From IMG/VR virus record IMGVR_UViG_3300045988_170206, positions 73,845 to 137,844 of that record: a stretch of DNA of 64,000 bases. One strand, 5' to 3'. Both the position numbers and the translations under genes were made by a program. The stretch's first letter is position 1. Each line of letters starts with the position of its first letter. This document shows, piece by piece, positions 2,371 through 62,448 of this stretch. The stretch is from a virus. The notes beneath the pieces are model-generated. The model saw nothing but the letters and a program-made list of their open reading frames with translations. It was not told the origin of the DNA and did not search any database.

Positions 2371-3798
2371 ATGCACGTGTCTGCACTCCACGCTGCCGTC
2401 AACTTCCGCAAGCACCTCAAGGTGGACCTGAGTCGCAGGGAAGTTCTGACACTCATGGCGCTGTTCACCTTCTGGCAGTGCAAGATCATCAGCCCCTCCT
2501 ACAACCTCCTCCTCGAGCGGTGTGTTGGCGCAAAGCGCTCCACGATGTTCACCGCCATGAAGTCCCTCGAGGACCGAGGCCTCCTCATTCGACGCTCGTT
2601 CCTGGATCGCAAGGACGGGTCGCGCCACGTCGTGTTCTTCCTGGACCTCCCTGGGATCTTCACCGACGAATGCTGCGCGCAGCTCGACTCCGATCCCAAG
2701 TCGCCGATCACGACCCGTCACACCATCGAAGTGGGGCGAACTGCCAGCACTGAGGAAATCCTCGCCATGGTCACGTTCGCTGACGTGTCCCAGTGGCAGG
2801 AAATCGACTGCAAGCTGACACGTAGGAAGCTGCCACTAGGTAACTTCGACGACCTAAGCGGCTTCCTCCTGCCCTGCCCGGACAACTTTCCTGTGCACGA
2901 AGAGGAAGAGCCAAAGCCGGAGCTGTGCGTCGCAGTCAGCGACAACCAAGGCGATCTCTTCGACATGCTGCACGAAGCGAAGACACAGGAAACCAGCAAC
3001 AAGGCCGCGGCAACGCATGGCACGGAAGACCAAGGCGCATATGGCACGTTGTGGCCTACTGCCGCCACCATCCCTGGCGGCTCAGTGTGGACCCCTGCCG
3101 ACGTGGAGGACACGTCCACGGTGCCCGCTACTCCAGCAGCGGGAGAGAGCGTCCAGGAGCGCGCTGAGCGCATCATCCGCGACCATCCTGGCGACGACAT
3201 GATCGATGCTGAGATCATCGACGTGGAGATCGTCGAAGACGAAACCCCCTCGGACGCGCTGATCGACGTTCCCGCGTCCCAGGAGCTCGCCATCGCCACC
3301 CCTGCGGTGCCCGTGAAGGCCAAGAAGCAGACCGGCTACACCGATGACTTTGAGAACTTCTGGCGCACCTACCCGCGCCGCATCGAGAAGAAGTCCGCCT
3401 TCAAGGCATGGAAGACTGCGCTCAAGAGCGGAGCAACCGCCGACGAGATCACCGCAGGCGCAGCCCGCTACGCCAAGTACCGCGCAGGCGAACCCGAGCG
3501 CTTCACAAAGCACCCCTCGACCTGGCTCAACCAGGGATGCTGGGAGGACGAGTACTCGACCGCCGGCATCGGCTACGGATACAACGGCGGCAACGGCACT
3601 GGCCTCGTTGCTCGCACACCAGAGGAGGCCGAATACCTCCGCCAGCTCGACAACTCCTGCTCGGAGATGTTCTACCGCAGCCTCGGCTTCAACAGCGCTG
3701 AGGAATACGTTGAGTACCAGCGAGGAATCGCCGAACTCAACGCCCGAGAAGCCGAAGCTGCATACGCCGAAGCCGCAGCCCGACGCATCGCTTTCTGA
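2371..3798 (+). CDS. putative replication/replisome-organiser-like protein (N-terminal MarR-like winged helix, C-terminal phage replication-protein-type domain)
   Basis: Start moved to the ATG at 2371, after the stop at 2294 and an intergenic hairpin. The C-terminus YTDDFENFWRTYPRRIEKKSAFKAWKTALKSG...HPSTWLNQGCWEDEY matches the F..FW..YP.k..k..A...w motif of phage DnaD-like/replication-protein C-terminal domains. Confidence 0.65.
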   Translation: MHVSALHAAVNFRKHLKVDLSRREVLTLMALFTFWQCKIISPSYNLLLERCVGAKRSTMFTAMKSLEDRGLLIRRSFLDRKDGSRHVVFFLDLPGIFTDECCAQLDSDPKSPITTRHTIEVGRTASTEEILAMVTFADVSQWQEIDCKLTRRKLPLGNFDDLSGFLLPCPDNFPVHEEEEPKPELCVAVSDNQGDLFDMLHEAKTQETSNKAAATHGTEDQGAYGTLWPTAATIPGGSVWTPADVEDTSTVPATPAAGESVQERAERIIRDHPGDDMIDAEIIDVEIVEDETPSDALIDVPASQELAIATPAVPVKAKKQTGYTDDFENFWRTYPRRIEKKSAFKAWKTALKSGATADEITAGAARYAKYRAGEPERFTKHPSTWLNQGCWEDEYSTAGIGYGYNGGNGTGLVARTPEEAEYLRQLDNSCSEMFYRSLGFNSAEEYVEYQRGIAELNAREAEAAYAEAAARRIAF

Positions 3799-5050: not shown

Positions 5051-6115
5051 ATGAACACCCAGGAAATCACGCTGGACCACAACAGCGACGACGGCCTCTA
5101 CACGAAACTCCTACGAGGCCGCTACGTTACCAGCGTCGAAGGCAGCATCATCACTCTCGACGACGGGACAGAACTCCACATCTACGGCAACGAAGGATGC
5201 GGCGGCTGCTCGAGCGGCTGGTACTGGCTCGAAGAAACCTTCAAGCGCGGCAACCGCAAGGCCCGTATCATGAGCGCCTACGTAGCCTACAGTGAGGACA
5301 GGACAGAAGACGAACCTGCCAGATCCGTCTACACGATCTTCGTGCTGGTGGACGGCAACCCCACCCAGCTTCCCCTCGCGACCGTGCGGGGCACCGACGG
5401 CAACGGCTACTACGGCACCGGCTTCACGCTCACCGCCACCATCCAAAAGCCCCCGACAGTGACCGCCACGGTCACGTCACGGGACATCATCAACGCGCTC
5501 GTGGACGGGCAAACACCCTCTGATGTCCCTGACATCCGCAACCGTGAAGACCTCCTCAACGCCGTCGTCTACACGCTCCAGCAGACGCGGGGCTTCGACT
5601 CTCCTCTGCGCATCACCGGGCCAGAGGCCCAGCTTTTCCGCAAGCTGGCCTCTATTCAGTACGGAGACCGCGGCCCCTACTATGTGGGCGCATGGTATGG
5701 CTTCCACCAAACACTCCTCCTCTGGTTTGCCGACATGGAGGGAGGCCTATCCCTCGTCCTGCGCGACTTATCCAACGGAGCGGAAGGCTACGTGGCGAAA
5801 CTACGCGACTTTACAGAACGAGTGCGCGCCTCCAAGGAGCCTATCAAGACCTTCGTCACCGGCTACGACTTGAAAGGCGACACAGCCACCGTCAACGGAG
5901 TCCGAGTGCCGGCCACCGACTTCCTCCTCTCCGAAGTCTGCGGCTTCCACGGCAATCGCATCGGCTACGAGAGCACTTACATCCATGATTGGATCTTCTT
6001 CCGCTACGGCGCGCGCATCATCAAGCACCGTGCAGGCGGACGCGGAGACGTTACAATCACCTCAGACACCCAGAGCGTTTGGGCAGTAAACCCCCAGAAA
6101 GGCATCGCATCATGA
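5051..6115 (+). CDS. hypothetical protein, paralog family A (GNEGCGGCSSGWY motif)
   Basis: 354-aa ORF. Clear similarity to 12707..13807 (LLRGRYV..., ITLDDGT..., GNEGCG.C.SGWY, ARIMSA.VA, YT.FV.VDGNP..LPLAT.RG.DG.G.YGTGF). Confidence 0.8.
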   Translation: MNTQEITLDHNSDDGLYTKLLRGRYVTSVEGSIITLDDGTELHIYGNEGCGGCSSGWYWLEETFKRGNRKARIMSAYVAYSEDRTEDEPARSVYTIFVLVDGNPTQLPLATVRGTDGNGYYGTGFTLTATIQKPPTVTATVTSRDIINALVDGQTPSDVPDIRNREDLLNAVVYTLQQTRGFDSPLRITGPEAQLFRKLASIQYGDRGPYYVGAWYGFHQTLLLWFADMEGGLSLVLRDLSNGAEGYVAKLRDFTERVRASKEPIKTFVTGYDLKGDTATVNGVRVPATDFLLSEVCGFHGNRIGYESTYIHDWIFFRYGARIIKHRAGGRGDVTITSDTQSVWAVNPQKGIAS

Positions 6116-6645
6116 CCAAGAAGACCCGCAGCAAGCACCGCGGCGCGCCACGTCGAGGAACCCCCCTCCGTGGCCTTGCCCGACTCGTCCGCCCACTCAC
6201 CGCCATCATTGGTGTCGCCAGCGGCATCATGGCATCGTTCGCACTCGCGGACATGAACCGAGCCATCAGCATCAACGACGCTGTACTCGCCTCACACCCC
6301 CCGCAGGACGCGACAACCACGATCCCTAACCCGCTCCCCGAGGGCACCATCACCGCTCTCGTCTCCTCCCACGCCGGTAGTGCGGGCTACAGCTCCACCG
6401 CCGGAGTCCTCATCGAACCTATCTGGCTCTTCCACCCACGCATGAGCTTCATCCTGGCACTCATCGCAGTCCTCGCGCTCGCATCCTGGATCACCAAACA
6501 CAGCAGATGGAACACCCTCCCCTTCGTCCGCAAGTTCCACATCGAGGCCCCCAAACCTCGCTGGTGGTGGGAGTTCACCGGCTACGCCGAAGTCTTCCTC
6601 CTCGTCAGCCTCACCGCCACCGTGATCTACACGCTCGGCAGATAG
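6112..6645 (+). CDS. predicted membrane protein
   Basis: ATG at 6112 overlaps the upstream stop (ATGA). Basic N-terminus followed by TM helices. Confidence 0.7.
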   Translation: MTKKTRSKHRGAPRRGTPLRGLARLVRPLTAIIGVASGIMASFALADMNRAISINDAVLASHPPQDATTTIPNPLPEGTITALVSSHAGSAGYSSTAGVLIEPIWLFHPRMSFILALIAVLALASWITKHSRWNTLPFVRKFHIEAPKPRWWWEFTGYAEVFLLVSLTATVIYTLGR

Positions 6646-22554: not shown

Positions 22555-23885
22555 ACCCACTCCGCACGCCCCGTCACCTCCATCGAGCGTGGCGGGGCTC
22601 CGTCGCCCTCACCTTCCTCCTTGCCCTCGTTCTCACGTTCTTCGCACACCCCGCTAAGGCGTTCACCGAAGACCAGGGACACAACCTCAAGGCCAAGCCC
22701 TCCACCTGGTGCCAGTGGTGCGCCGACAGTGACTTCGGGTACGACCCAAACGAAGAGCGCGGCATGATTACCAACGCCGGAGCAACCATGGGCGAGGCGG
22801 CGTGCGGTAACTTCTCCTTCGCATTCATGGAACTTCGCGCGGGAGTTAAAGCCCGCGGCTCCTACACCGTCAACGACATGCGCGCCGAAGCCATCAAACT
22901 GATGCAGGCAGGCAAAGATAGCCCATTCAGCGATGACGGTTGGCTCTACCAGCTCAATCCCGAAGGCTTCGCCCAGGGAGTCTCCAACATGACCGGCGGA
23001 CAGCTCACCGTCGAAGTCCAAGGCGACACCAGCGGAGCGGGACTGGGAGCCAACAAGTTCACCGAAGACGACGTGCGCCAAGCCATGAACGACGGCTACT
23101 TCGTCATCTTCATGGTCCAAACCGACACCGGCGGACGACACTGGATCGCCGGCGACTACGTGGAAGGCAACACCGTCCACACCATAGACTCAGGACGACC
23201 CCTCACCACCCTCGACCGCTCCCAATACCCCGGCGGTATCGGCCCAATCCTCAAGTTCTCCCGCACCGACGGCAAGAAACTCCAAGACCTCCCCACCATC
23301 GACGACGCAGCCACCAGCGTCGGCGGCAACAACAGCGGTGACACCGCCACCGCAACCGACACCGGCATCATCAGCGACCTCGACCTACCCGGTATGCCAC
23401 CTCGCACCGTCGGACAAAACCACCAGCTCTCCGAAGCCGACAAGCTCGCCTTCGCGAAAGACACCCTCAAGTTCGCTAACTACACGAACCTGAACACTAC
23501 ACAGAAAGACAACGTTGACCAGATCGTCGCACAGCGACAGCTCGAACAAGACCGCAAAGTATCGGACTGGTTCAGCACCGGCGCAGCCGTCATCGGCATC
23601 ATCCTGTTCCTGTACGCCCTCGTCATCGTCCTCGCATTCCTGTTCGACCTCGCCTTCCCACTGTTCTCTCTCCTCAAGATCGCGACAGCCGGCTCCCTGA
23701 CTGTGCATCACGAGTCGCAAAGCCGTGCGGGCGTGAAAGAGCTGGGAGCTCCACCTCGAGGCCGTTGGGCGACATGGGGGAATGTGTTTGTGACTGCCGG
23801 GCTGGTCGCAGCGTTGGGTGGTTTGCTCATCAGCGGGACGCTGGTTAGGTGGGTTGCGTTGTTCGTGCAGATGCTCTACATGTGA
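22551..23885 (+). CDS. secreted papain-like cysteine-peptidase-like protein with a C-terminal membrane module
   Basis: Signal peptide ...HPAKA|FT. Candidate Cys (EAACGNFSFAF) and His (GGRHWIAGDY) catalytic residues. The C-terminus WFSTGAAVIGIILFLYALVIVLAFLFDLAFPLFSLLK parallels that of 16002..17195. Confidence 0.65.
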   Translation: MNPLRTPRHLHRAWRGSVALTFLLALVLTFFAHPAKAFTEDQGHNLKAKPSTWCQWCADSDFGYDPNEERGMITNAGATMGEAACGNFSFAFMELRAGVKARGSYTVNDMRAEAIKLMQAGKDSPFSDDGWLYQLNPEGFAQGVSNMTGGQLTVEVQGDTSGAGLGANKFTEDDVRQAMNDGYFVIFMVQTDTGGRHWIAGDYVEGNTVHTIDSGRPLTTLDRSQYPGGIGPILKFSRTDGKKLQDLPTIDDAATSVGGNNSGDTATATDTGIISDLDLPGMPPRTVGQNHQLSEADKLAFAKDTLKFANYTNLNTTQKDNVDQIVAQRQLEQDRKVSDWFSTGAAVIGIILFLYALVIVLAFLFDLAFPLFSLLKIATAGSLTVHHESQSRAGVKELGAPPRGRWATWGNVFVTAGLVAALGGLLISGTLVRWVALFVQMLYM

Positions 23886-23908
23886 CAGGTGAGCATAACC
23901 CCTGCATA

Positions 23909-23927
23909 CCTGTGATCTAGTTAACCA
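23909..23927 (+). promoter_or_regulatory. conserved intergenic motif CCTGTGATCTAsTTAACC (copy A)
   Basis: CCTGTGATCTAGTTAACCA. Followed by the hairpin CCGGGTTG/CAACCCGG at 23932-23958. Lies upstream of the tRNA-Ser/TROVE unit. Confidence 0.55.
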
Positions 23928-24034
23928 GTTTCCGGGTTGCGCACACAAAACAACCCGGCCTACACTAAACCCATCACAAACAACACATAATTTAAGAGCG
24001 TCCCCTGAACCGCCCTGGATCAGGGGAGCACCCC

Positions 24035-24125
24035 GGAAAGGTGCCCGAGTGGCTGAAGGGGCCTCCCTGCTAAGGAGGTAAACAGAGGAATCTGTTTCGC
24101 GGGTTCGAATCCCGCTCTTTCCGCA
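24035..24125 (+). tRNA. tRNA-Ser (anticodon GCT), type II
   Basis: Hand fold: acceptor GGAAAGG/TCTTTCC, anticodon arm CCTCC-CTGCTAA-GGAGG, long variable arm (AACAG/CTGTT), T arm GCGGG-TTCGAAT-CCCGC. Confidence 0.9.
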
Positions 24126-24202
24126 GGACGCGAGAAGCGCCTGAGACGAGTTACTTCATTTGGATCGAAACTACACTCGACTCAACTTTTTCTCTCGCGT
24201 CC
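24126..24202 (+). ncRNA. candidate structured RNA element A (long imperfect hairpin between tRNA-Ser and the TROVE gene)
   Basis: GGACGCGAGA (24126-24135) pairs with TCTCGCGTCC (24193-24202). An inner stem GAGACGAGT/ACTCGACTC is present. The apical sequence GAGTTACTTCATTTGGATCGAAACTACAC resembles that of element B at 26341-26443. Confidence 0.35.
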
Positions 24203-24248
24203 CCCACTTTTGCCCAAAACACAACCAGAACCCAGAAAGGAGAGCGTC

Positions 24249-25820
24249 ATGGCGCGCATGAATACCCGAGGCGCGAAGCCTCGCAACATGGCTACCACTC
24301 CCGTCAGTACGACGACGGGACAGGCCTTCACCGCAGAAGGTGGAATGGGGTGGCAGCGCACCCCCAAGGGCGAGCTGTTCCTCGCCGCCGTGACCTCCCT
24401 CAACGAGGACACCTTCTACGAGACCGCCGATGAGCGCGTCAACCGTATCCAGACCCTCACCACGGACCCCGAGATCATCAACAGCCCCGAGTGGGCGCTC
24501 GGCATGGTCCGCTGGCTCCGCCAGGAAGTCGGACTCCGCTCGATCCCCGGTGTTGTCGCCATGACCGTCGTTAAGGCACGCCTGGACGCTGGCCTGACCG
24601 GCACGAACCGTCAGATTATCGAAGCGGCCATCGGTCGCCTCGACGAGGCCTCCGACATGATCGCCGGGTGGATGAGCCTGTACGGGCGTAACATCCCATC
24701 CTGCGTGCGCCGTGGCGTTGCCGACGCTCTGCGCGCCCGACTGTCCGAGCGTTCCTACCTCAAGTGGGTTGGCCGCATGAACTCGGGTAGCGTCACGCTC
24801 CGCGATGTCATCAACCTGACGCACCCCAAGCCGAAGGGTAAGACGCAGGAAGCGCTCATCAAACTCGTGCTCGACGAGGGCTACGGCAAGAAGGGCGACG
24901 ACAAGCAACTACCCACCATCCGAGCACGCCGTCAGTTCCTCGCCATGGACCGTGACGCGCAGATTAGCGCCCTCACCGGCCCGGACGCGAAGGATGTCAT
25001 CCGTAAGGCTGCTCTCACCCACGAGGTGATCGCAGGCGCAATCGGGACGATCCCCGCCGACGTGTGGGAAACCCTCGTCCCCGAGATGGGTTACATGGCC
25101 CTGCGAATGAACCTCCGACGCATCGAAGCATCCGGCGCGTCTCGCGCGCTGATCGCCACGATCAACGAGCGCCTGAGCGACGTGGAAGAGGCTGCGAAGT
25201 CTCGCACCATGCCGGTCGCGTTCTACGCAGCGTACAAGAACGCGCCGCTGGCCTTCGCCGCCGCCCTACAGGACGCAGCGAACGCTTCGCTCGAGAACGT
25301 TCCCGCGCTCAAGGGGCGCACGCTGGTCCTCCTGGACCGCTCCGGCTCGATGAGCTACCCCATGTCGGCGAAGTCGTCGCTGAGCTGCCAGGACACGGCC
25401 AACGTGTTCGCGTCGGCGCTCGCTATTCGAGGCGAGAGCGTCCGAGTGGTTGCGTTCGACGATCACATGGAGGACGTGAAGGTCGCCAGCACGGACCTGC
25501 TCCGTGTCGTGGACCAGATGCCCACCGCTCGAGGCTGCACCTACACGCCGGATGCTGTCGCTTACGCCCACAAGAAGGGCGAGAAGTACGACCGCATCAT
25601 CATCCTCACGGATGAGCAGTACAGGGGCGGCAGCGTCGATAACGCGCTCGACACGTATGCTCCCAGGGTTCCGGTGTTCACCTGGAACTTGGCGGGCTAT
25701 GCGACAGCGCAGATGGAGGCCCGAGAGGGCCGCTGGACCTTCGGCGGACTCTCCGACAAGGGCTTCCAGATGATCCCGCTCCTCGAGCGCGGGATCGGCC
25801 AGTCCTGGCCCTGGGAGTAA
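24249..25820 (+). CDS. Ro60-like TROVE domain plus vWA domain protein (Rsr-like)
   Basis: Start at the ATG at 24249 with an AAAGGAG RBS. TROVE-like N-terminal part (NEDTFYE..., MGYMALRMNLRRI, MPVAFYAAYK). vWA MIDAS-like segment LVLLDRSGSM...IIILTDEQ. Confidence 0.85.
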   Translation: MARMNTRGAKPRNMATTPVSTTTGQAFTAEGGMGWQRTPKGELFLAAVTSLNEDTFYETADERVNRIQTLTTDPEIINSPEWALGMVRWLRQEVGLRSIPGVVAMTVVKARLDAGLTGTNRQIIEAAIGRLDEASDMIAGWMSLYGRNIPSCVRRGVADALRARLSERSYLKWVGRMNSGSVTLRDVINLTHPKPKGKTQEALIKLVLDEGYGKKGDDKQLPTIRARRQFLAMDRDAQISALTGPDAKDVIRKAALTHEVIAGAIGTIPADVWETLVPEMGYMALRMNLRRIEASGASRALIATINERLSDVEEAAKSRTMPVAFYAAYKNAPLAFAAALQDAANASLENVPALKGRTLVLLDRSGSMSYPMSAKSSLSCQDTANVFASALAIRGESVRVVAFDDHMEDVKVASTDLLRVVDQMPTARGCTYTPDAVAYAHKKGEKYDRIIILTDEQYRGGSVDNALDTYAPRVPVFTWNLAGYATAQMEAREGRWTFGGLSDKGFQMIPLLERGIGQSWPWE

Positions 25821-25875
25821 CCACCCACTAGGGGCCTCGCCCAACACTCCCACCACAGGGCGAGGCCCCACCAAC

Positions 25876-25949
25876 GCCCCTATAGCTCAGTTGGTTAGAG
25901 CTGCGGACTTTTAATCCGAGGGTCGCAGGTTCGAGTCCTGCTGGGGGCA
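25876..25949 (+). tRNA. tRNA-Lys (TTT)
   Basis: Acceptor GCCCCTA/TGGGGGC, anticodon arm GCGGA-CTTTTAA-TCCGA, T arm GCAGG-TTCGAGT-CCTGC. Confidence 0.9.
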
Positions 25950-25969
25950 CTCAGTGAAAAACTGAACAT

Positions 25970-26057
25970 GGCGGGGTGCCGGAGTGGACTAACGGAGCTG
26001 TCTTGAAAACAGTCGCACCGACAGGTGCCCAGGGTTCGAATCCCTGTCCCGCCGCCA
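25970..26057 (+). tRNA. tRNA-Ser (TGA), type II, CCA encoded
   Basis: Acceptor GGCGGGG/TCCCGCC, anticodon arm GCTGT-CTTGAAA-ACAGT, long variable arm, T arm CAGGG-TTCGAAT-CCCTG, 3' GCCA. Confidence 0.9.
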
Positions 26058-26068
26058 ACTGAATACAT

Positions 26069-26140
26069 GGTCCTATGGGGTAGCGGTCAGCCCGCCAGAT
26101 TTTCACTCTGGAGACCCGAGTTCGACTCTCGGTAGGACTA
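26069..26140 (+). tRNA. tRNA-Glu (TTC)
   Basis: Acceptor GGTCCTA/TAGGACT, anticodon arm CCAGA-TTTTCAC-TCTGG, T arm CCGAG-TTCGACT-CTCGG. Confidence 0.85.
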
Positions 26141-26146
26141 CTCCGA

Positions 26147-26219
26147 TCCGGTGTAGCTCAACGGACAGAGCGGGGGACTTCTAATCCCAAGGTTGCAGGT
26201 TCGAGCCCTGTCACCGGAA
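26147..26219 (+). tRNA. tRNA-Arg (TCT)
   Basis: Acceptor TCCGGTG/CACCGGA, anticodon loop CTTCTAA, T arm GCAGG-TTCGAGC-CCTGT. Confidence 0.85.
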
Positions 26220-26244
26220 CTCCAACAACTAAATAACCCACTGA

Positions 26245-26335
26245 GGGTCGTTGGCTGAGCGGCGAAAGCATCCGGCTGTAAACCGGACACAGGGTAGCCA
26301 GTCCCACACCGCAGGTTCGAGTCCTGCACGGCCCA
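26245..26335 (+). tRNA. tRNA-Tyr (GTA), type II
   Basis: Acceptor GGGTCGT/ACGGCCC, anticodon arm TCCGG-CTGTAAA-CCGGA, long variable arm, T arm GCAGG-TTCGAGT-CCTGC. Confidence 0.85.
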
Positions 26336-26340
26336 CTGGT

Positions 26341-26443
26341 GGAGTGAAGACGCGAATGTGTGAGTTACTTCTTTGCATAGAAAACACATCCTGGGCGTAG
26401 ACCCAGGGCCCCATTTGCTCGCGCAGCCTTTCAGCTTCACTCC
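26341..26443 (+). ncRNA. candidate structured RNA element B (non-tRNA spacer inside the tRNA array)
   Basis: The closing stem GGAGTGAAG (26341-26349) pairs with CTTCACTCC (26435-26443). Internal hairpins ATGTG...CACAT and CCTGGG-CGTAGA-CCCAGG. Shares GACGCGA, GAGTTACTTC, TTTG.AT.GAAA..ACAC and CTCGCG with element A, in the same order. Confidence 0.35.
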
Positions 26444-26452
26444 GCCCCTCCA

Positions 26453-26523
26453 TCTCGGATGGTGTAACGGCAGCACACCGGATTTTGGTTCCGGGCATCT
26501 AGGTTCGAATCCTAGTCCGAGAG
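26453..26523 (+). tRNA. tRNA-Gln (TTG)
   Basis: Acceptor TCTCGGA/TCCGAGA (U1-A72, as in many bacterial tRNA-Gln), anticodon arm CCGGA-TTTTGGT-TCCGG, T loop TTCGAAT. Confidence 0.8.
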
Positions 26524-26598
26524 CGAACTGCGGGCGTGTCCCTGTCGAGAAGATAGTGACGCGCCCGCAGGTTTACCCAGATCGAAAGGAAAACCACC

Positions 26599-27279
26599 GT
26601 GACTATTGGTGAGCGTAAGGCCGCAGCCAACAAGCGCCGACGCGCATTCCACATCTACACGATGAGCGCCTTGACCGCCCTCTGCGTGGGCGTATTCGCA
26701 GCTCTCGCGTTCGTGGGCCTGATCGGCCCCTCCCAGTGGGCTATCAGCCGACAGGAAACCACCCTCGGGAAGGTCTTCACCGGCTGGCTGACGACCGTCA
26801 ACATGCCCGCCGCAGGGTGGGGGAGTGAGACCGTGTTCGTCTCCTCCTACACGGGCGATACCGCCCACCTGACCACAGGGGAGATGGCCCCCGTCTCGGA
26901 CCTGACCCTCACGGCACCGCTCTCGGCGACAGCTGAGCACGCCGTCTTCATGAATACCCTCACCGCAGCGCTCCTCGCTGCACTCCTGCTCCTTGTGGCC
27001 GTTGCTATGTGGCCGTCCTACGTCACCGACCCTGCGCAGCTCGAAACAAACCTGACGGGAGCGTTCGAGTGGCCCACTCCCGCGACGAGCGAGAAGCAGC
27101 GCCAGAAGGCCCGCGAGCGTCGCCAGCAGCGACTAGAAGAGTTCGCCGCAGCCCGCGAAGAAGCCGATGACCTCGACGCTGAACACCAGACCGACACAAC
27201 CCAGAACGACGCGCAGGAACACTCCGCAGGCACCGAGTTTCTAGCCGCCCGCCTCATGGAAGGAACCCGCCATGAGTGA
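26599..27279 (+). CDS. predicted membrane protein with a charged C-terminal tail
   Basis: GTG start with a GAAAGGAAAACC RBS. Two TM helices. Confidence 0.7.
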   Translation: MTIGERKAAANKRRRAFHIYTMSALTALCVGVFAALAFVGLIGPSQWAISRQETTLGKVFTGWLTTVNMPAAGWGSETVFVSSYTGDTAHLTTGEMAPVSDLTLTAPLSATAEHAVFMNTLTAALLAALLLLVAVAMWPSYVTDPAQLETNLTGAFEWPTPATSEKQRQKARERRQQRLEEFAAAREEADDLDAEHQTDTTQNDAQEHSAGTEFLAARLMEGTRHE

Positions 27280-27676
27280 ACCTCTCATCGTCGCGTTCGC
27301 CGCGGCCCTCGTCGCGTCCGCAGCCTTCATGGTTGCCACTGTCGTCCTCATGGGCGACACGGCCTTCAAGCGCAGCGCAGACACCCTCAGCGCCACGCTC
27401 ACAGTCGCACTCATCAGCGCAGTGTTCGCCTCCCCGATCTTCACCCCGGTCACCTACCAGGTGCCCGACGTGATCCACGCCTGGGTGAACTTCGGCCTCG
27501 CAGCCCTCGCACTGCTCCTGATGATGGTCACGGTGTGGAACATGTTCCGCCGATACCCCGACGTGCCCCTCACGATCCACTGGAGCGCATGGGCCATCAA
27601 CGGCATCATCGGCTACGCCCTATGCGGCTTCATCCCCACTATCCACTTCATCCATGCGATCAGCCCGTGGGCCTGA
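27272..27676 (+). CDS. predicted multi-pass membrane protein
   Basis: 134-aa ORF that overlaps the upstream stop. About four hydrophobic helices. Confidence 0.7.
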   Translation: MSEPLIVAFAAALVASAAFMVATVVLMGDTAFKRSADTLSATLTVALISAVFASPIFTPVTYQVPDVIHAWVNFGLAALALLLMMVTVWNMFRRYPDVPLTIHWSAWAINGIIGYALCGFIPTIHFIHAISPWA

Positions 27677-41661: not shown

Positions 41662-41882
41662 TGCCTGAAACCGCAACAAAACAAAGGTGACAACAACCAC
41701 ACTATGCGCATTAAAGAGACATTTTTAGTTGCAAAACAACCACTTTCACAACCGCCACAAACTAATACGCCAACAAAAACTAGAAAATACGCTTGAAAAA
41801 CATTCAGCGTACATATAGGCTTTCCGCGAAAGCACGGAGCGAGGGAGTACACACTTCCTCCATCAACACAGAAGGAGACACT

Positions 41883-43604
41883 TTGTCTACTAAGACCATC
41901 AAGCGCTCGGCCCTCACGAAGGCCGTCACGCTCTTCGCCCTCGTGGGCATGGGTATTATCGCCCACCCCGCAACGGCGACGTTCGCCGCTCCCGAGAATA
42001 CGACTGACGACACGCCCGCCGCTGCGCCCGCCCGCTCTGGCAACGACATCACCGGAAATGATGGTGGCGCATCGACCGCCACCGGCGGCATTCAGATCGA
42101 CGGCGTGCGCGCCACCCGCGAGTATGACAAGCCGAGCGTTGGCTCGTCCGTAAAGGTCCACGTGGACTACTCCGGCAAGAAGGTGTCTCAGGGCGCAACC
42201 TTCACGATTGGCCTGGGCGAGGGCCTGAAGGTTCCCGCAGGCATGAATAAGGTGACTCTCAAGGCCACCACCCTCGACGGTTCCCACGAGGAGAACATCG
42301 GTGAGTGCACCGTCACCAACAATGCACTCAACTGTGAGATCACCGCAGACATCGCCGCCACCCTCGGCGGTAACGGCGACCTCAAGGCCGCATATGTAGA
42401 CTTCCAGGCGGCTATCGACTCCTCTGCCACCGGCAAGAAGTCCATCGAAATCACCGTCGCTGGCACCACCTACACGGTGTCCATGGGCGACGGGGTTATC
42501 GGTGAGGGTTACGAGAAGGATCCCGGTAAGGGTATGTGGTCCGACGGCATGGAGAATGGCCTGCACCGCCACCGCGGCTTCATCTGGACAGGCGAACTCC
42601 CCGGCGGTACCGCTGTCACCATCACCGACACGAGCGCCGACGTGCTTGCCAGCAAGGCGTACTGCACAGCGAATCATTCGTGGGCCAAGAAGGACGAAAT
42701 CATCGCGGACAACAACAAGCTGTCCGCAGACAAGCACACCATCACCTTCACCATTCCGGCAGGTGATAACGTCAACTGCCGTGTCGCCTTCAAGATGCTG
42801 ACCGAGGGCCTGGTCGCACACAACGAGGCCGAAGTTAATGGCAAGACCCTTGTTGCCGATAACAAGTGGCGCGCGAAGGGCGGCTCCGGCGGCTCCACGG
42901 ACGAGGATGCAAAGCCCGTCGAGCCTGCTCCTACGCCGGATCCGACCCCGGAACCTCCCAAGCCGGACCCGAAGCCTACCCCAGAGCCCACGCCTGAGCC
43001 GTCTGAGCCTCCGGCTCCCACGCCCGAGCCTTCGGAGCCTCCGGCCCCCACCCCGGAACCTTCAACGCCTCCGGCCACCCCGGACCCCGAGCCCCCCGCT
43101 CCTACGCCGGACCCAACCCCCGAGGCCCCGAAGCCGGACCCCAAGCCTGAGCCGACCCCCGAGGCTCCCAAGCCGGACCCGAAGCCCACGCCCGAGCAGC
43201 CCACCCCGGATCCCAAGCCGACCCCGGACACGCCTCCGGTCACTCCCGACCCGAAGCCCAGCGTTCCTCCGGTCACCCCGGATCCCGAGCCCAGCACCCC
43301 GTCCGTGACCCCGGACCCGAAGCCCTCGGAGCCCCCGGTTACGCCTGAGCCCTCCACGCCTCCGGCTCCCACGCCTGAGCCGAAGCCGTCCGAGCCGACC
43401 ACACCTGTCACCCCCAACACGCCCAGCACCCCGGACACTCCTCCGGTGACCCCGAAGGCCCCCACGCCTTCCGCTCCCGCCAGCAATGGCGGTGGCACGC
43501 TGGCTAAGACGGGTGCCGACGCTGGCCTGATCGCTGGCGCTGGCGTGCTCGCCGTCGCCGGTGGCGCGCTCCTGGTGGCCCGCCGCCGCCAGAACAAGAA
43601 CTGA
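41883..43604 (+). CDS. LAxTG-anchored cell-wall surface protein (adhesin-like N-terminal domain, Pro-rich stalk)
   Basis: TTG start at 41883 with a GAAGGAG RBS. Signal peptide. C-terminal LAKTG followed by a hydrophobic helix and RRRQNKN. Confidence 0.85.
   Translation: MSTKTIKRSALTKAVTLFALVGMGIIAHPATATFAAPENTTDDTPAAAPARSGNDITGNDGGASTATGGIQIDGVRATREYDKPSVGSSVKVHVDYSGKKVSQGATFTIGLGEGLKVPAGMNKVTLKATTLDGSHEENIGECTVTNNALNCEITADIAATLGGNGDLKAAYVDFQAAIDSSATGKKSIEITVAGTTYTVSMGDGVIGEGYEKDPGKGMWSDGMENGLHRHRGFIWTGELPGGTAVTITDTSADVLASKAYCTANHSWAKKDEIIADNNKLSADKHTITFTIPAGDNVNCRVAFKMLTEGLVAHNEAEVNGKTLVADNKWRAKGGSGGSTDEDAKPVEPAPTPDPTPEPPKPDPKPTPEPTPEPSEPPAPTPEPSEPPAPTPEPSTPPATPDPEPPAPTPDPTPEAPKPDPKPEPTPEAPKPDPKPTPEQPTPDPKPTPDTPPVTPDPKPSVPPVTPDPEPSTPSVTPDPKPSEPPVTPEPSTPPAPTPEPKPSEPTTPVTPNTPSTPDTPPVTPKAPTPSAPASNGGGTLAKTGADAGLIAGAGVLAVAGGALLVARRRQNKN
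42916..43470 (+). repeat. in-frame Pro-rich tandem repeats (PTPEPSEPPA, PKPDPKPxPTPE units); boundaries approximate
   Basis: Repeated CCGGACCCGAAGCC / ACGCCCGAGCC units are visible in the DNA. This is coding low complexity, not a CRISPR array. Confidence 0.7.
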
Positions 43605-49368: not shown

Positions 49369-50181
49369 ATGCGCCCAGACGAAGCAAACGAGATCCCTGT
49401 CGAAGCGACGAGCTTGCCCCTGTCGCTTCCTGCTCATGTGCGCGCCGTCGCCCTCGAGTATGCCTACGTGGGCGTGAGGCTCAGCAAGCATCTCAACCAA
49501 TATGCAGGGTTTCCGCAACCTCAATCCCTGGATGTGGCAGACGTTGCGCTTGATCCGTCACATGCAGCGGAGCTCCTGCGCGCTGAATGGGGGCTTTCTG
49601 ACAGGCCAGTCCACAGCATGATGCGCCTCCTCGAAACGGTGGGAGTGCGTGTCTTCTCTCTCGGACAGGGGCAAGCAGAGGTCAGCACGTTCTCCTTCAT
49701 GTGGGAGGGGGTGCCTTACGTGTTCCTGCAAACAGGGTGGGATGCTGTAGCGCAGCGTTTTTCCCTCGCGAGCGAGCTAGGGCACCTCGCCATGCACGCC
49801 ATCGACACTGAACCAGTTGGCACGCTGCGCAGGATTGAAGAGGCTAAGGACTTCGGGAGAGCGTTCCTCATGCCACCGTGCGCACTCTATGCCCACGGGA
49901 GCACCTGGACATCGCACGATGTCATCAACGCTTCCGTCATGTACGGAGCGCCTACAGGGGAACTGCTCTGCCACCTGTACGCTCTCGGTGTCATCAGCCT
50001 TCACCAAAAGACTGAGGTCGCCGCCGACATCAAAGGTGATCGCCCTAGCTGTCCTGTTGAAAGGTCGGAGCATCTACAGCGCATCAGACTCCACGCGCTA
50101 CGCGAAGCTGCCAGCAAGACCGGCATCAACGTCGCAACAGCATCCGAGTACCTGCGCGACCTGACCATCCGATCCGTATAA
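49369..50181 (+). CDS. ImmA/IrrE-like (DUF955) metallopeptidase-fold protein, HExxH degenerate (SELGH)
   Basis: FSLASELGHLAMHAI...AKDFGRAFLMP resembles the ImmA/IrrE core, but the first His of HExxH is Ser. Confidence 0.6.
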   Translation: MRPDEANEIPVEATSLPLSLPAHVRAVALEYAYVGVRLSKHLNQYAGFPQPQSLDVADVALDPSHAAELLRAEWGLSDRPVHSMMRLLETVGVRVFSLGQGQAEVSTFSFMWEGVPYVFLQTGWDAVAQRFSLASELGHLAMHAIDTEPVGTLRRIEEAKDFGRAFLMPPCALYAHGSTWTSHDVINASVMYGAPTGELLCHLYALGVISLHQKTEVAADIKGDRPSCPVERSEHLQRIRLHALREAASKTGINVATASEYLRDLTIRSV

Positions 50182-50246
50182 CCAACTGGCATGAGCCCCT
50201 AGCGGCACTCTGCCCCTATAGGCACAATCATCCAGAGAGGAACACC

Positions 50247-51500
50247 ATGAGGACATTCTTCATCGTCCGAGGAGCGCCCGGTATCGGCAAGAGCACCTTC
50301 CTCAGCCTCTACCAGGCCCGCGGCCAAGTCGTCTCCCTCGACGGGATCCGCGACGTGTTCGCCATGCCCATCCCCGACTGGGACGGCGTTCCCGGAAGGT
50401 CCATCTGTGGGGACACTGAGGGGACGATCTCCCGCGTCCTCGAGTCCGCCCTGCGGTCACGCTTCGAGCAGGGTGGCGACGTGTTCTTCGACGCGACCAA
50501 CCCGGAGCTGCAACAGTTCAAGCACCTCGCCGACATGTCCCGAGCCTACGGCTACCAGGTCGCTGTCATCGACATGCAAGGGAACGCCACCGACGACATG
50601 ATCCTCGCGCAGAACGCGAAGCGCGCGGGCAGCGTCACCTACGTCCCCGAAGAAGACGTTCTCAGGATCTCAACGCGAGTCCGTGAGGGCACCCGCGAGT
50701 GCCGCCGGTACGCGGGACGTGGCATGTGGGTGTCCGCCCAGTGGGAAGAACGTGACTGTGGGCTGCACCTGGTCAACCTCGATGCCATGCGCGACTTCGT
50801 GCGCTCCACCATCGACGGGCGCTACGTCAAGACGATCACCCCGAAAGCGGGGGAGCGTGTCGTCATTGTCGGGAGCGCCTACGGTGGTGCTCAGCCACTC
50901 AGCGCAACGCTCATGGAAGCCTGGGACGCGACCAAGGATGCGCGCGCCGTGACGTGGGTGTTCCTCGGAGATGCGCTCGCATCCAGCCCGCACGTCACCC
51001 AGGCGTGGAAGATCCTCAAGTACTTCGAGACCCAAGCCAAGCAACACGGCCACACCGTCATCTTCCTTGAAGGGATCGACGAGACTATCCTGCGTGAAAT
51101 CCTCACCCGCGCCGCCAGCTCCCACGCATTCCCTGACGCTCGAGAAGTCATCGACGCAATCACCCGAACGGGAACCCAGAAACGCGACCTCCTGCGTCAC
51201 CTGAACAACCTCACCTGCGCGCTCACCATCCACACGGAAAGCGGAACCTGCTACGTCACCACCGGCGGCACCGCAAACCAGGACCGCACTCTCACCGCCC
51301 TCGAGTGCACCAACGGCGCAAACGACCGCACCAGCACCTACCGTAGGAAGACCAACTACGAGGACTACCCTGAACCCCTCAGTGAGGCAGCGGCCCGCGC
51401 CGACATTACGATCATCCACGGCCACAGGAACACACCTCACGACATGCCCCGAGTCGTCGCCGTCGAAACCGGGAAGGCCCCCGGTTACGTGATCCTCTGA
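50247..51500 (+). CDS. P-loop kinase (polynucleotide-kinase/AAA_33-like) fused to a degenerate calcineurin-like phosphoesterase domain
   Basis: FFIVRGAPGIGKSTF, VSLDGIR and FFDATN fit a kinase. The C-terminal half has VIVGSAYGG / FLGDALASSP / FLEGIDE / IIHGHRN in the positions of the GDxHG / GDxxDRG / GNHE / H motifs. Confidence 0.65.
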   Translation: MRTFFIVRGAPGIGKSTFLSLYQARGQVVSLDGIRDVFAMPIPDWDGVPGRSICGDTEGTISRVLESALRSRFEQGGDVFFDATNPELQQFKHLADMSRAYGYQVAVIDMQGNATDDMILAQNAKRAGSVTYVPEEDVLRISTRVREGTRECRRYAGRGMWVSAQWEERDCGLHLVNLDAMRDFVRSTIDGRYVKTITPKAGERVVIVGSAYGGAQPLSATLMEAWDATKDARAVTWVFLGDALASSPHVTQAWKILKYFETQAKQHGHTVIFLEGIDETILREILTRAASSHAFPDAREVIDAITRTGTQKRDLLRHLNNLTCALTIHTESGTCYVTTGGTANQDRTLTALECTNGANDRTSTYRRKTNYEDYPEPLSEAAARADITIIHGHRNTPHDMPRVVAVETGKAPGYVIL

Positions 51501-53287: not shown

Positions 53288-53321
53288 GCCTCGGCCACGA
53301 CACAAAAACCGTGGCCGAGGC
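53288..53321 (+). terminator. 12-bp GC-rich hairpin after family B copy 1
   Basis: GCCTCGGCCACG pairs with CGTGGCCGAGGC. No T tract. Confidence 0.4.
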
Positions 53322-53352
53322 TCACCACATCCCCAGCCAGGAAGGCCCCATA

Positions 53353-61957: not shown

Positions 61958-62032
61958 GCTGCTCTAGCTCAACGGCAGAGCATCCGCCTTGTAAGCGGAC
62001 GGTTGAGGGTTCGAATCCCTCGGGCAGCTCCA
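61958..62032 (+). tRNA. tRNA-Thr (TGT), CCA encoded
   Basis: Acceptor GCTGCTC/GGGCAGC, anticodon arm TCCGC-CTTGTAA-GCGGA, T arm GAGGG-TTCGAAT-CCCTC, 3' TCCA. Preceded by a 12-bp hairpin at 61914-61953. Confidence 0.9.
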
Positions 62033-62064
62033 CCGCTACAAACCAGTGGCGATGAAACTGAATA

Positions 62065-62139
<75 letters not shown>

Positions 62140-62158
62140 AGTGCACACAGTGCACAAC

Positions 62159-62276
62159 GGATCTCTAGCTTAATTGGGGCCGTTACGCGGTGTTCTAGGC
62201 CCGCTGCGCGACTCCCTGGGTAAAGCGCCTGCCCGAAGGACGGCAGGAGATGACAGTTCGATCCTGTCGAGACCCA
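62159..62276 (+). ncRNA. non-canonical tRNA-like gene (118 nt) with a ~50-nt D-loop insertion and an 8-nt anticodon-position loop
   Basis: Acceptor GGATCTC/GAGACCC (one A.C mismatch). T arm GACAG-TTCGATC-CTGTC. D stem GCTT/AAGC enclosing the hairpin GGGCC...GGCCC. Arm CCTGCC-CGAAGGAC-GGCAGG. Confidence 0.45.
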
Positions 62277-62278
62277 CA

Positions 62279-62334
62279 GCGTTGGTTCTGGTGGACCGGA
62301 GTAGTAGGTGCGGGTTCAAGTCCCGCCACGCGCC
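62279..62334 (+). ncRNA. short T-arm-containing tRNA-like fragment (no anticodon arm foldable)
   Basis: T arm GCGGG-TTCAAGT-CCCGC. Weak acceptor pairing GCGTTGG/CACGCGC (5 of 7). Confidence 0.3.
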
Positions 62335-62341
62335 CCGCAAG

Positions 62342-62398: not shown

Positions 62399-62448
62399 GA
62401 GAACAGAATACTAGTCAGTTCTCGGATTGGGGGTAGCTCCCCCTTTCT

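What the first reader, a model, noticed from the sequence alone, without database searches (positions are those of the whole stretch)
24035..26523. Ro60/TROVE-vWA gene embedded in a tRNA array on a mobile element
Seen in sequence: a 523-aa TROVE+vWA ORF (24249..25820) lies between tRNA-Ser(GCT) and a run of Lys, Ser, Glu, Arg, Tyr and Gln tRNAs. The whole unit sits downstream of one copy of the conserved intergenic motif (23909). Established knowledge: Ro60 orthologs (bacterial Rsr) work with Y RNAs. In Deinococcus and Salmonella these Y RNAs are encoded next to rsr and carry tRNA-like modules (YrlA class). Inference: the element may carry its own Ro ribonucleoprotein for RNA quality control or decay, or for handling its tRNAs. 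The partner RNA should lie within a few hundred nt, and two candidates are described in the next finding. The kinase/phosphoesterase-like gene at 50247 adds a second RNA-end-processing flavour.
Basis: partly seen in the sequence, partly recalled or inferred. Interest (0 to 1): 0.7.

Follow-up and report, generated by a model that had tools for sequence, protein, structure and literature searches.

The report
Mobile-element Ro60 gene with Y RNAs
A large actinobacterial mobile element carries a real Ro60 RNA-binding protein gene inside a tRNA gene cluster together with two previously unannotated small Y-type partner RNAs slotted in next to the tRNAs; the general arrangement is already known from phages, but this short Y-RNA family is not in the curated RNA catalogue (Rfam).

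Summary
ORF 24249-25820 (+) is a 523-aa Ro60/TROVE+vWA protein, shown by Pfam, PHROG, a profile match to Xenopus and human Ro60 and Deinococcus Rsr, and a confident model whose 13 best PDB matches are all Ro60. It lies between tRNA-Ser(GCU) and six more tRNAs.

The predicted partner RNAs exist. One is at 24125-24204, abutting the 3' end of tRNA-Ser. The other is at about 26338-26446, between tRNA-Tyr and tRNA-Gln. Both share a stem / internal loop / stem module with the signature GA(A/U)G(C/U)G...GUUACUUC...UUCUC. Across 22 copies from about 10 lineages, 95.8% of positions pair and 16 of 19 pairs show compensatory changes. In Brevibacterium the same module encloses a canonical tRNA-like YrlA (Rfam 48 bits), so this is the Ro-binding stem of a Y RNA. 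The window copies have lost the tRNA-like domain, and Rfam YrlA does not detect them.

An RNA-only scan of viral contigs recovers the family only inside tRNA arrays. Cultured phages (Atuin, BRock, Rabbitrun) also carry it.

Ro genes in phage tRNA arrays and phage Y-like RNAs are already known. Verdict: a new variant of a known kind, of moderate interest. Function (most likely an RNP acting with PNPase) is inferred, not shown.

The parts
23909..23926 (+). Element-specific intergenic motif CCTGTGATCTAGTTAACC; candidate promoter or operator of the tRNA-Y-Ro unit
   Evidence: 4 copies on the + strand (23909, 30441, 37879, 61794) against 0.04 expected. Two of them lie 126 and 164 nt upstream of the two tRNA arrays. 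Conserved in close relatives. A promoter role is inferred; no sigma-70 consensus was found.
24035..24124 (+). tRNA-Ser(GCU), type II, no encoded CCA
   Evidence: ARAGORN; Rfam tRNA 53.6 bits. Conserved at the same position in the 63%-identity family.
24125..24204 (+). Short Y-like RNA ('type B', YrlB-like). Terminal stem 24126-24135/24193-24202, internal loop AGCGCC / ACUUUUUC, second stem, and an apical loop that opens with UUACUUC
   Evidence: Folds with z -3.6. Alignment A2: 98.1% paired, 11 of 21 pairs compensatory. Model R1 scores 93.6 bits. The stem starts 2 nt after the tRNA-Ser discriminator. Retained in Ro-deleted variants.
24236..24244 (+). Ribosome-binding site AAAGGAGAG of the Ro gene
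   Evidence: Read from the sequence; conserved in relatives.
24249..25820 (+). Ro60/TROVE + vWA(MIDAS) protein, 523 aa
   Evidence: D363, S365, S367, T431 and D455 are invariant in the family alignment.
25831..25868 (+). 12-bp GC-rich hairpin after the Ro stop codon, with no U tract; probably stabilises or helps process the mRNA 3' end
   Evidence: -29.6 kcal/mol, z -7.6. G-C to A-U compensatory change among relatives, loop conserved. Deleted together with the ORF in L097. The role is inferred.
25876..26336 (+). tRNA run: Lys(UUU), Ser(UGA), Glu(UUC), Arg(UCU), Tyr(GUA)
26338..26446 (+). Longer Y-like RNA ('type D'). 12-bp terminal stem, ACGCGAAUG (CGAA motif), GAGUUACUUC, and an internal hairpin in the position of a T arm but without a T-loop; no D arm
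   Evidence: Folds with z -4.3. Best non-self R1 hit in the whole window, 21.6 bits, E about 1e-3. 98.4% paired against 36-54% for slid controls, 3 compensatory pairs. It fills the gap between tRNA-Tyr and tRNA-Gln.
26453..26524 (+). tRNA-Gln(UUG)

Best explanation
The element encodes its own Ro60 ribonucleoprotein module, built into a tRNA array. Shown: the ORF is a Ro60-family ring protein with an intact vWA/MIDAS motif. Two conserved structured RNAs flank it on the same strand. They share a stem / internal loop / stem module that, in a Brevibacterium relative, is the closing stem of a canonical tRNA-like YrlA Y RNA. Inferred: the unit tRNA-Ser / Y(B) / Ro mRNA / hairpin / five tRNAs / Y(D) / tRNA-Gln is transcribed as one precursor, probably from the motif at 23909. 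Host RNase Z and RNase P would then cut at the tRNA borders and so define the Y RNA ends. Y(B) may stay on as the 5' leader of the Ro mRNA. Ro would bind the conserved GA(A/U)G(C/U)G / UUCUC internal-loop helix, and the conserved apical loop (UUACUUCAUUUGG..GAAAC..ACAC) would recruit a host effector. By analogy with Deinococcus RYPER and Thermus phage phiRo60-Yrl, that effector is most likely PNPase. The complex would then degrade, or shield from degradation, structured RNAs such as tRNAs while the element is established in the cell. The confidence of 0.75 is for the identity claim (a Ro60 gene with cognate Y-type RNAs in the array); the PNPase-tethering step alone would rate about 0.4.
For: Protein: (Ro60 profile and fold; the invariant D363, S365, S367, T431 and D455 fit a DxSxS..T..D MIDAS motif, though which T and D belong to the site is inferred). 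RNA structure: (98.1% paired, 11 of 21 compensatory pairs, at most 3 in slid controls). (22 copies, 95.8% paired, 16 of 19 compensatory pairs, covariation score 0.826 against at most 0.125). Shared module between the two window RNAs. Bridge to YrlA: L009 6852-6990 scores 35.5 bits with R1 and encloses Rfam YrlA at 48 bits, E 9e-9, with T, acceptor-like and D arms. Position equivalence: chromosomal homologs have sub-threshold YrlA hits just upstream of the Ro gene. Array embedding: 10 of the 17 representative copies measured start 0-5 nt after a tRNA. The RNA-only scan gave 40 real hits, 39 of them within 25 nt of a same-strand tRNA; all tRNA-adjacent hits were confirmed by R1, and none of the 17 tRNA-less hits was. 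Cultured phages carry it. No + strand terminator was predicted inside the unit. Precedents: two Y-like RNAs upstream of phage phiRo60 bind it and host PNPase (PMC12135203). YrlA and YrlB lie upstream of Rsr and are processed from one precursor, with the GNCGAAN0-1G and YUAY motifs (PMC4201824).
Against: There are no expression or binding data for this element. Rfam YrlA and Y_RNA do not hit the window even at E<=10. The GNCGAAN0-1G motif is only approximated: CGCGAAUG in type D and AGCGCC in type B. Neither window RNA has the tRNA-like domain that defines YrlA. Natural variants keep the type B RNA after precise loss of the Ro ORF (L097, L130). Several RNA-only hits have no Ro gene within 8-12 kb, so the RNA may not strictly need a cis-encoded Ro. 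Covariation of type D on its own does not stand out from shuffles. No PNPase or other effector gene was identified in the window.
Confidence: 0.75

Rival explanations
1. The Y-like RNAs are general components of mobile-element tRNA arrays that work without the element's own Ro. They might act with a host Ro, as decoys or sponges for host PNPase or tRNA-targeting nucleases, or as processing platforms. On this reading the Ro gene is an optional cassette that happens to insert there.
For: Ro-deleted variants of the same element keep tRNA-Ser, an intact type B RNA and even the ribosome-binding site. L056 keeps Ro but lacks type D. Many RNA-only hits in low-GC arrays have no Ro within 8-12 kb. Copies occur 1-3.5 kb from the Ro gene, between unrelated tRNAs.
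Against: Every mobile-element locus fetched through Ro and searched with R1 carries at least one copy. Three of the four cultured phages do too, and the fourth has a YrlA-type RNA. The module is the stem of a genuine YrlA next to Ro in L009. Ro is found on the same contig for L102, L115 and L122 once the search is widened. The deletions may simply be recent.
Confidence: 0.2
2. The type B RNA is mainly a cis-acting 5' leader of the Ro mRNA. It would stabilise the mRNA after RNase Z cleavage or serve as an autoregulatory Ro-binding site, rather than being a free trans-acting Y RNA.
For: It ends 44 nt before the ATG with no tRNA downstream to define its 3' end. The same arrangement holds in the 63% family and in L009 3873-3943.
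Against: Homologous copies lie far from any Ro start codon and are flanked by tRNAs on both sides: L009 2864-2940, L069 8258-8332, Atuin 3253-3367. The RNA is retained where the ORF is deleted. The two roles do not exclude each other.
Confidence: 0.15
3. The gap sequences are decayed tRNA genes, or plain spacer, terminator or processing hairpins with no specific partner.
For: They occupy tRNA-sized slots in the array. Type D has a hairpin where a T arm would be. The 55% family's long form scores weakly as tRNA (18.3 bits).
Against: No tRNA model hits the two window RNAs at E<=10. The fold is a long two-part stem, not a cloverleaf. There is no U tract after them. Helices co-vary while the single-stranded motifs are invariant across about 10 lineages spanning 29-62% GC. 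That is purifying selection on a specific RNA, not decay.
Confidence: 0.04

Closest known systems
Thermus phage phiLo phiRo60 with Yrl1/Yrl2 (PDB 9KOP, 9L5Y; PMC12135203)
   Same: It is the closest solved relative of this protein (phmmer 6e-26, profile 7e-45, Foldseek TM about 0.66). It is phage-encoded, has two stem-bulge-stem Y-like RNAs next to the gene, and encodes no PNPase of its own, so it must rely on the host enzyme.
   Different: Only about 22% identity. The phiLo Yrl RNAs were defined by a CGAA motif upstream of the gene and are not described as part of a tRNA array. Here the RNAs abut tRNAs, one lies downstream of the gene, and only type D has CGAA in register.
YrlA/YrlB Y RNAs with Rsr in Mycobacterium smegmatis, Salmonella and mycobacteriophages (Rfam RF02553; PMC4201824)
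   Same: Encoded on the same strand close to Ro. Two RNAs per locus, one longer and one shorter. Stem / internal loop / stem with a 5' CGAA-type motif and a YUAY (here UUAC) opening the loop. Probably processed from one precursor. A relative (L009) has this module on a canonical YrlA.
   Different: The window RNAs lack the T, acceptor-like and D arms that define YrlA, and the Rfam model does not detect them. Instead they are physically joined to genuine tRNAs. The consensus is GA(A/U)G(C/U)G rather than GNCGAAN0-1G.
Actinophage 'Ro-like RNA binding protein' genes inside tRNA arrays (Arthrobacter phage Atuin gp111, Streptomyces phage BRock gp191)
   Same: 35-37% identical protein. Same placement of the gene inside a long same-strand tRNA array. 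The same Y-like RNA family is present.
   Different: Those are confirmed tailed phages with known hosts. The RNAs are not annotated there, and in Rabbitrun small hypothetical ORFs are called over them.
tRNA array unit of Bifidobacterium conjugative megaplasmid pMP7017 and relatives (PMC10832533)
   Same: A relative (B. longum p1, L001) has a 40%-identical Ro gene inside an array of 24 tRNAs plus a tmRNA, with an R1-type RNA 10 nt after the stop codon. The array is highly transcribed in three transcription units in pMP7017.
   Different: A plasmid, not a virus. The published analysis does not mention the TROVE gene or Y RNAs. There is no nucleotide similarity to the window.
Deinococcus radiodurans Rsr-Y RNA-PNPase (RYPER)
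   Same: The Ro ring with vWA has the same fold (2nvo, TM 0.66). It supplies the proposed mechanism, in which a Y RNA tethers Ro to an exoribonuclease.
   Different: Chromosomal and stress-induced. Tethering to PNPase is untested here.

Membership tests
Ro60 / TROVE (Rsr) protein family | HEAT-repeat ring (TROVE domain) recognisable by sequence profile | tested here: met
   Pfam TROVE scores 29.4 bits (cut-off 23) but only over aa 270-329. The family profile hits 1yvp at 8e-11, 9nen at 1e-10 and 2nvo at 3e-10 over aa 28-471.
Ro60 / TROVE (Rsr) protein family | Overall doughnut fold with a C-terminal vWA domain | tested here: met
   AlphaFold2 model with pLDDT 83.8 and pTM 0.79. The 13 best Foldseek PDB hits are all Ro60/Rsr/phiRo60, TM 0.59-0.71.
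Ro60 / TROVE (Rsr) protein family | vWA MIDAS motif DxSxS...T...D | tested here: met
   Pfam vWA_Ro60 scores 43.1 bits. D363, S365, S367, T431 and D455 are invariant in 14 homologs at 48-100% identity. Assigning this T and D to the metal site is inferred.
Ro60 / TROVE (Rsr) protein family | Binds Y RNA and misfolded RNA | not testable with these tools
   Needs EMSA or pull-down experiments.
NCBIfam Rsr equivalog (NF041674) | Score at or above the curated cut-off of 900 bits | tested here: not met
   31.7 bits. This is a divergent family member, not an Rsr equivalog.
YrlA (Rfam RF02553) | Reaches the family's gathering score of 69 bits | tested here: not met
   No YrlA hit in 23000-27500 even at E<=10.
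YrlA (Rfam RF02553) | tRNA-like domain with T arm, acceptor-like stem and D arm | tested here: not met
   Type B has none. Type D has only one hairpin (CCUGGG-CGUAGA-CCCAGG) whose loop varies in sequence and length and is not a T-loop.
YrlA (Rfam RF02553) | 5' GNCGAAN0-1G motif and conserved YUAY | tested here: inconclusive
   YUAY is met: UUAC is invariant. For GNCGAAN0-1G, type D has CGCGAAUG (5 of 6 specified bases, with CGAA) and type B has AGCGCCUG (3 of 6).
YrlA (Rfam RF02553) | Encoded within 4 kb of Ro on the same strand | tested here: met
   44 nt upstream and 519 nt downstream of the gene, both on the + strand.
Y RNA (functional class; YrlB-like short form) | 5' and 3' ends pair into a stem interrupted by a conserved internal loop or bulge, supported by covariation | tested here: met
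   The same module closes a canonical YrlA in L009.
Y RNA (functional class; YrlB-like short form) | Stable RNA bound by Ro in vivo | not testable with these tools
   Needs RNA-seq or Ro immunoprecipitation.
Mobile-element tRNA array unit | Dense same-strand cluster of tRNA genes on a phage or plasmid | tested here: met
   7 tRNAs in 2.5 kb, 6 of them within 650 nt, plus a second array at 61958-63186. The element is found on viral-classified contigs up to about 147 kb.

The most novel reading that the evidence does not exclude
These short Y RNAs have handed their tRNA-mimic module over to real tRNAs. They have become regular, tRNA-punctuated units of phage and plasmid tRNA arrays across both high-GC and low-GC hosts. 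RNase Z and RNase P define their ends, and they can persist and act without a cis-encoded Ro, for example with a host Ro or as modulators of PNPase or anticodon nucleases. That would make them a widespread, uncatalogued class of array-resident regulatory RNA, not a private partner of one protein.
Probability: 0.2. Interest if true: 0.7.

Novelty: new variant of a known kind. Interest (0 to 1): 0.5.

Why it matters
Only a handful of bacterial and phage Ro60-Y RNA systems have been characterised, and what they do during infection or plasmid carriage is still open. This work shows that a Ro60 gene common in metagenomes (homolog clusters with hundreds of members) comes with a short Y-RNA family that Rfam misses and that is wired into tRNA arrays. 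It gives a covariance model, a sequence signature and cultured phages (Atuin, BRock, Rabbitrun) in which to test processing by tRNA enzymes, Ro binding and effector recruitment. It also flags a Ro gene and Y RNA that went unnoticed in relatives of the well-studied Bifidobacterium megaplasmid pMP7017. From my own knowledge, not tested here: commensal Ro60 orthologs have been proposed as triggers of anti-Ro autoimmunity, so mobile Ro60 genes in what appear to be human-associated Actinobacteria may be relevant to that question.

Tried and rejected
- **Rfam on the window.** The gathering-threshold scan and the E<=10 scan found no Y_RNA or YrlA. The same was true for the 63% and 55% families.
- **Nucleotide similarity.** Searches against phages and plasmids found only a tRNA-Lys match, so the element's identity could not be read from a known record.
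- **Phage or plasmid?** Pfam and PHROG scans of 30 large ORFs found replication, RecT, HNH/ParB, methylase and lysozyme-like genes but no capsid, terminase or conjugation hallmark. The question stays open.
- **Further Y-like copies in the second tRNA array.** None was found. R1 with filters off gave nothing above 14 bits apart from the two reported RNAs and the reverse strand of the first. The TGGTGGAGT after tRNA-Val turned out to be only a short shared junction.
- **ARAGORN's 'tmRNA' at 62177-62549.** Rfam does not support it.
- **Gene 50247 as an RNA repair enzyme.** Only an N-terminal kinase domain was found, with no PDB or NCBIfam hit for the rest.
- **Resemblance to human Y1.** I noticed that GAGUUAUCUCAAUUGAUUG (human Y1, from memory) looks like the phage loops. 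I did not pursue it: it is probably coincidence, and it was not tested.
- **Covariation of type D alone.** The close family varies too little for a significant result.
Full report
**1. Observation**

The window is about 60% GC with a uniformly negative GC skew, and nearly all its genes are on the + strand. ORF 24249-25820 (+) encodes 523 aa and is preceded by AAAGGAGAG six nt upstream. ARAGORN and Rfam agree on tRNA-Ser(GCU) at 24035-24124, and on Lys(UUU), Ser(UGA), Glu(UUC), Arg(UCU), Tyr(GUA) and Gln(UUG) between 25876 and 26524.

**2. The protein**

- Pfam gives vWA_Ro60 (5.7e-11) and a partial TROVE hit (6.3e-7, aa 270-329 only).
- PHROG 850 'RNA-binding protein' matches over the full length at 9e-44.
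- phmmer against PDB finds only the Ro60 of Thermus phage phiLo (9KOP/9L5Y, 6e-26).
- A profile of 14 homologs also reaches Xenopus Ro60 (8e-11), human RO60 (1e-10) and Deinococcus Rsr (3e-10, aa 28-471).
- An AlphaFold2 model (pLDDT 83.8, pTM 0.79) has Ro60-family structures as its 13 best PDB matches (TM 0.59-0.71). Isolated vWA domains come next.
- D363, S365, S367, T431 and D455 are invariant, which fits an intact MIDAS site.
- The NCBIfam Rsr equivalog cut-off is far from reached (31.7 against 900 bits).

It is therefore a divergent Ro60-family member, not an Rsr ortholog in the strict sense.

**3. The element**

No nucleotide match exists in the phage or plasmid collections. The exact protein occurs on at least 24 metagenome contigs of up to about 135 kb. 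Close homologs (90-97% identity) lie on contigs up to about 147 kb, many of them in IMG/VR.

The window holds a replication initiator, a RecT-like protein, HNH/ParB, a C5 methylase, a GmrSD-like nuclease and a lysozyme-like protein, and a WhiB-like gene is called at the corresponding position of the exact-match contigs. No capsid, terminase or conjugation hallmark was seen. Whether it is a phage or a plasmid remains open.

The best plasmid relative of the protein (40% identity) is on a B. longum pMP7017-like megaplasmid. There the gene sits in an array of 24 tRNAs plus a tmRNA, with an RNA ligase gene nearby.

**4. Partner RNAs**

Rfam finds no Y_RNA or YrlA in 23000-27500 even at E<=10. Even so, two tRNA-free gaps fold far better than shuffled sequence: 24125-24205 (z -3.6) and 26337-26452 (z -4.3). 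Both contain GAGUUACUUC.

Loci fetched through the protein fall into three groups:

- a close family at 86-100% protein identity
- a 63% family
- a 55% family on contigs of 90-420 kb

In the 63% family, the gap right after tRNA-Ser(GCU) holds an RNA with the same architecture. Its terminal stem is completely rewritten: GGACGCGAGA/UCUCGCGUCC becomes GGUGGCGUUAGA/UCUAACGCCACC. The 55% family has a short copy about 100 nt upstream of Ro and a long copy directly after tRNA-Leu.

On the 19-sequence alignment A2, the two-helix structure is 98.1% paired. Eleven of 21 pairs carry double-sided changes, against at most 3 in slid controls.

**5. Covariance model R1**

R1 scores 93.6 bits on 24125-24204. 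With filters off, its best non-self hit in the whole 64 kb is 26340-26445 (21.6 bits, E about 1e-3; the next hit is 13.9 bits). The two window RNAs therefore share the module.

R1 also finds copies in lineages it was not trained on:

- four in Brevibacterium oceani (L009)
- two each in the low-GC jumbo contigs L069 and L077
- one 10 nt after the Ro stop codon on the B. longum megaplasmid
- a third copy in the 55% family

With 22 copies from about 10 lineages, 95.8% of cells pair and 16 of 19 pairs have compensatory changes. The covariation score is 0.826 against at most 0.125 for slid partners, and no shuffle reaches it. That alignment is fitted to the model, so the slid controls are the fairer comparison.

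The invariant single-stranded signature is GA(A/U)G(C/U)G ... G(U/C)UACUUC ... UUCUC.

**6. Why these are Y RNAs**

- **Position.** The chromosomal actinobacterial homologs examined (one Arthrobacter and four Dactylosporangium loci) have sub-threshold Rfam YrlA hits (33-51 bits, E 1e-8 to 2e-3) just upstream of the Ro gene. This is the position type B occupies here.
- **Layout.** The Rfam YrlA consensus has the same order of elements: stem, internal loop, stem, then CUAc. Chen et al. 2014 name GNCGAAN0-1G and YUAY as the hallmarks. UUAC is invariant here, and type D has CGCGAAUG in register.
- **The bridge.** L009 6852-6990 is an R1 hit (35.5 bits) that encloses an Rfam YrlA match of 48 bits (E 9e-9), with a canonical T arm, acceptor-like stem and D arm.
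- **Precedent.** The closest solved relative of the protein, phiRo60, binds two stem-bulge-stem RNAs encoded next to its gene, and with them binds host PNPase (PMC12135203).

The window RNAs lack the tRNA-like domain. They are not YrlA members. They are short, YrlB-like Y RNAs.

**7. Embedding in the tRNA array**

Ten of the 17 representative copies I measured start 0-5 nt after a tRNA, and several end 2-10 nt before the next one. In the window, the type B stem begins 2 nt after the tRNA-Ser discriminator. Type D leaves 1 and 6 nt to tRNA-Tyr and tRNA-Gln.

A search of IMG/VR with an RNA-only pattern gave 57 hits. Forty are in loci with tRNAs, and 39 of those lie within 25 nt of a same-strand tRNA. 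R1 confirms every tRNA-adjacent hit that was not already a known member of the close family (21 loci, 22-82 bits). The 17 hits without tRNAs are about what I would expect by chance, and R1 confirms none of them.

The new classes are low-GC (29-35%). They sit between tRNA-Val and tRNA-Asn, or between tRNA-Tyr and tRNA-Gln.

No + strand terminator is predicted within 23700-26800. A motif found four times in the window precedes both tRNA arrays. Co-transcription and end definition by RNase Z and RNase P are inferences.

**8. Limits of the linkage to Ro**

- L097 and L130 are variants of the same element (L097 is about 84% identical in nucleotide sequence and syntenic). The Ro ORF and its 3' hairpin are missing: in L097 window 24230 joins to 25867. 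tRNA-Ser, an intact type B RNA and, in L097, the ribosome-binding site remain.
- L056 keeps Ro but lacks tRNA-Tyr and type D.
- Several low-GC loci have no Ro within 8-12 kb.
- On the other side, L102 and L122 have a distant Ro 3-7 kb away, and L115's contig encodes one elsewhere.

Ro is thus a dispensable cassette. Independent function of the RNA cannot be excluded.

**9. Comparison with what is known**

A Ro-like gene inside a phage tRNA array is already visible in annotated records (Arthrobacter phage Atuin gp111, Streptomyces phage BRock gp191). YrlA-type RNAs were reported in 22 phages in 2014. TROVE proteins are listed among jumbo-phage RNA-repair and tRNA-provisioning adaptations (PMC7824862).

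What appears new:

- the short Y-RNA family itself, which Rfam 15 does not detect
- its placement as a unit of tRNA arrays
- its presence in pMP7017-like plasmids, whose transcriptome paper reports the tRNA array, a tmRNA and a manA motif but no TROVE gene or Y RNA

R1 also hits Atuin (42.6 bits, ending 1 nt before tRNA-Trp, plus two weaker hits that fill tRNA gaps), BRock and Rabbitrun. Quantum has a 43-bit YrlA upstream of Ro. These phages make the hypothesis testable.

**10. Side claim**

Gene 50247-51500 shows only an N-terminal P-loop kinase (AAA_33 / Zeta_toxin; PHROG polynucleotide kinase and the N-terminus of an RNA ligase family). Nothing is recognisable in its C-terminal 270 aa. It follows an spr1629-type repressor/antitoxin homolog. 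An RNA-repair role is possible but no better supported than a toxin-antitoxin pair.

**11. Verdict**

The item is a new variant of a known kind: a mobile-element Ro60 RNP module with reduced Y RNAs embedded in a tRNA array. The biochemical function (a PNPase-linked RNP acting on structured RNAs) is inferred by analogy.

Noticed in passing
window 62177-62623: ARAGORN calls a 'tmRNA' (tag AGSSPATRPARAV*) that Rfam does not support. The stretch instead has three isolated T-arm-like hairpins (about 62253, 62311, 62378). They are followed by a 100-nt tRNA with a long internal insert (62449-62548) and a tRNA with a 4-nt 'anticodon' (62549-62623). It may be tRNA fragments or an unknown structured RNA.
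   Followed up: partly
window 23909, 30441, 37879, 61794 (+): The motif CCTGTGATCTASTTAACC occurs 4 times against 0.04 expected, always intergenic and on the + strand. Two copies lie upstream of the two tRNA arrays. It is a likely element-specific promoter or operator.
   Followed up: partly
L069 6633-7019: A GOLLD RNA (Rfam 214 bits, above the gathering score) sits inside the tRNA array of a 189-kb viral contig whose Ro gene is 55% identical to the window's. Two R1-type Y-like RNAs are in the same array.
   Followed up: no
L097 2936-3230 and L130: Natural variants of the same element in which the Ro ORF and its 3' hairpin are missing but tRNA-Ser and the Y-like RNA remain. In L097 the deletion is precise (window 24230 joins to 25867) and the Ro ribosome-binding site is also kept.
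   Followed up: yes
L144 (Gordonia phage Rabbitrun NC_060133) 2921-3278: Two small annotated 'hypothetical protein' CDSs (gp093, gp094) overlap R1 and YrlA-type RNA hits upstream of the Ro-like gene. They are probably mis-called ORFs over Y RNAs.
   Followed up: partly
L145 (Streptomyces phage BRock) 5579-5742: A near-threshold manA RNA match (49.7 against 55.2 bits) lies between two tRNA-Lys genes, echoing the manA motif reported in the pMP7017 tRNA region. An annotated collagen-repeat CDS (5689-6636) overlaps its 3' part and also runs over the downstream tRNA-Lys.
   Followed up: no
window 24035-26524 and 61958-63186: Almost all element tRNAs have U at position 34 and read A-ending codons: Lys UUU, Ser UGA, Glu UUC, Arg UCU, Gln UUG, Thr UGU, Pro UGG, Ala UGC, Val UAC, Leu UAG. 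Such codons are probably rare in a host of about 60% GC, so this fits codon supplementation. The set also overlaps tRNAs that I recall as classic anticodon-nuclease targets.
   Followed up: no
window 49369-51500: An spr1629-family repressor/antitoxin homolog is followed by a Zeta-toxin/AAA_33 kinase-domain protein. This may be a toxin-antitoxin pair rather than an RNA repair enzyme.
   Followed up: partly
window 51557-53278 and 53311-55101: Two adjacent large ORFs (573 and 596 aa) are paralogs: repeat families D6, D8 and D15, 72-80% nt identity at a spacing of about 1.79 kb. Neither has any family assignment.
   Followed up: no
window 42922-43381: Proline-rich tandem repeats (PEPT/PKPD-like, in units of about 33 nt) lie inside the 603-aa ORF 41793-43604, which has no family hits.
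   Followed up: no
L006 13170-14905: One otherwise syntenic contig has an IS200/IS605-type insertion (Y1 transposase plus a TnpB/Cas12f-like gene) about 1.6 kb downstream of the tRNA array.
   Followed up: no
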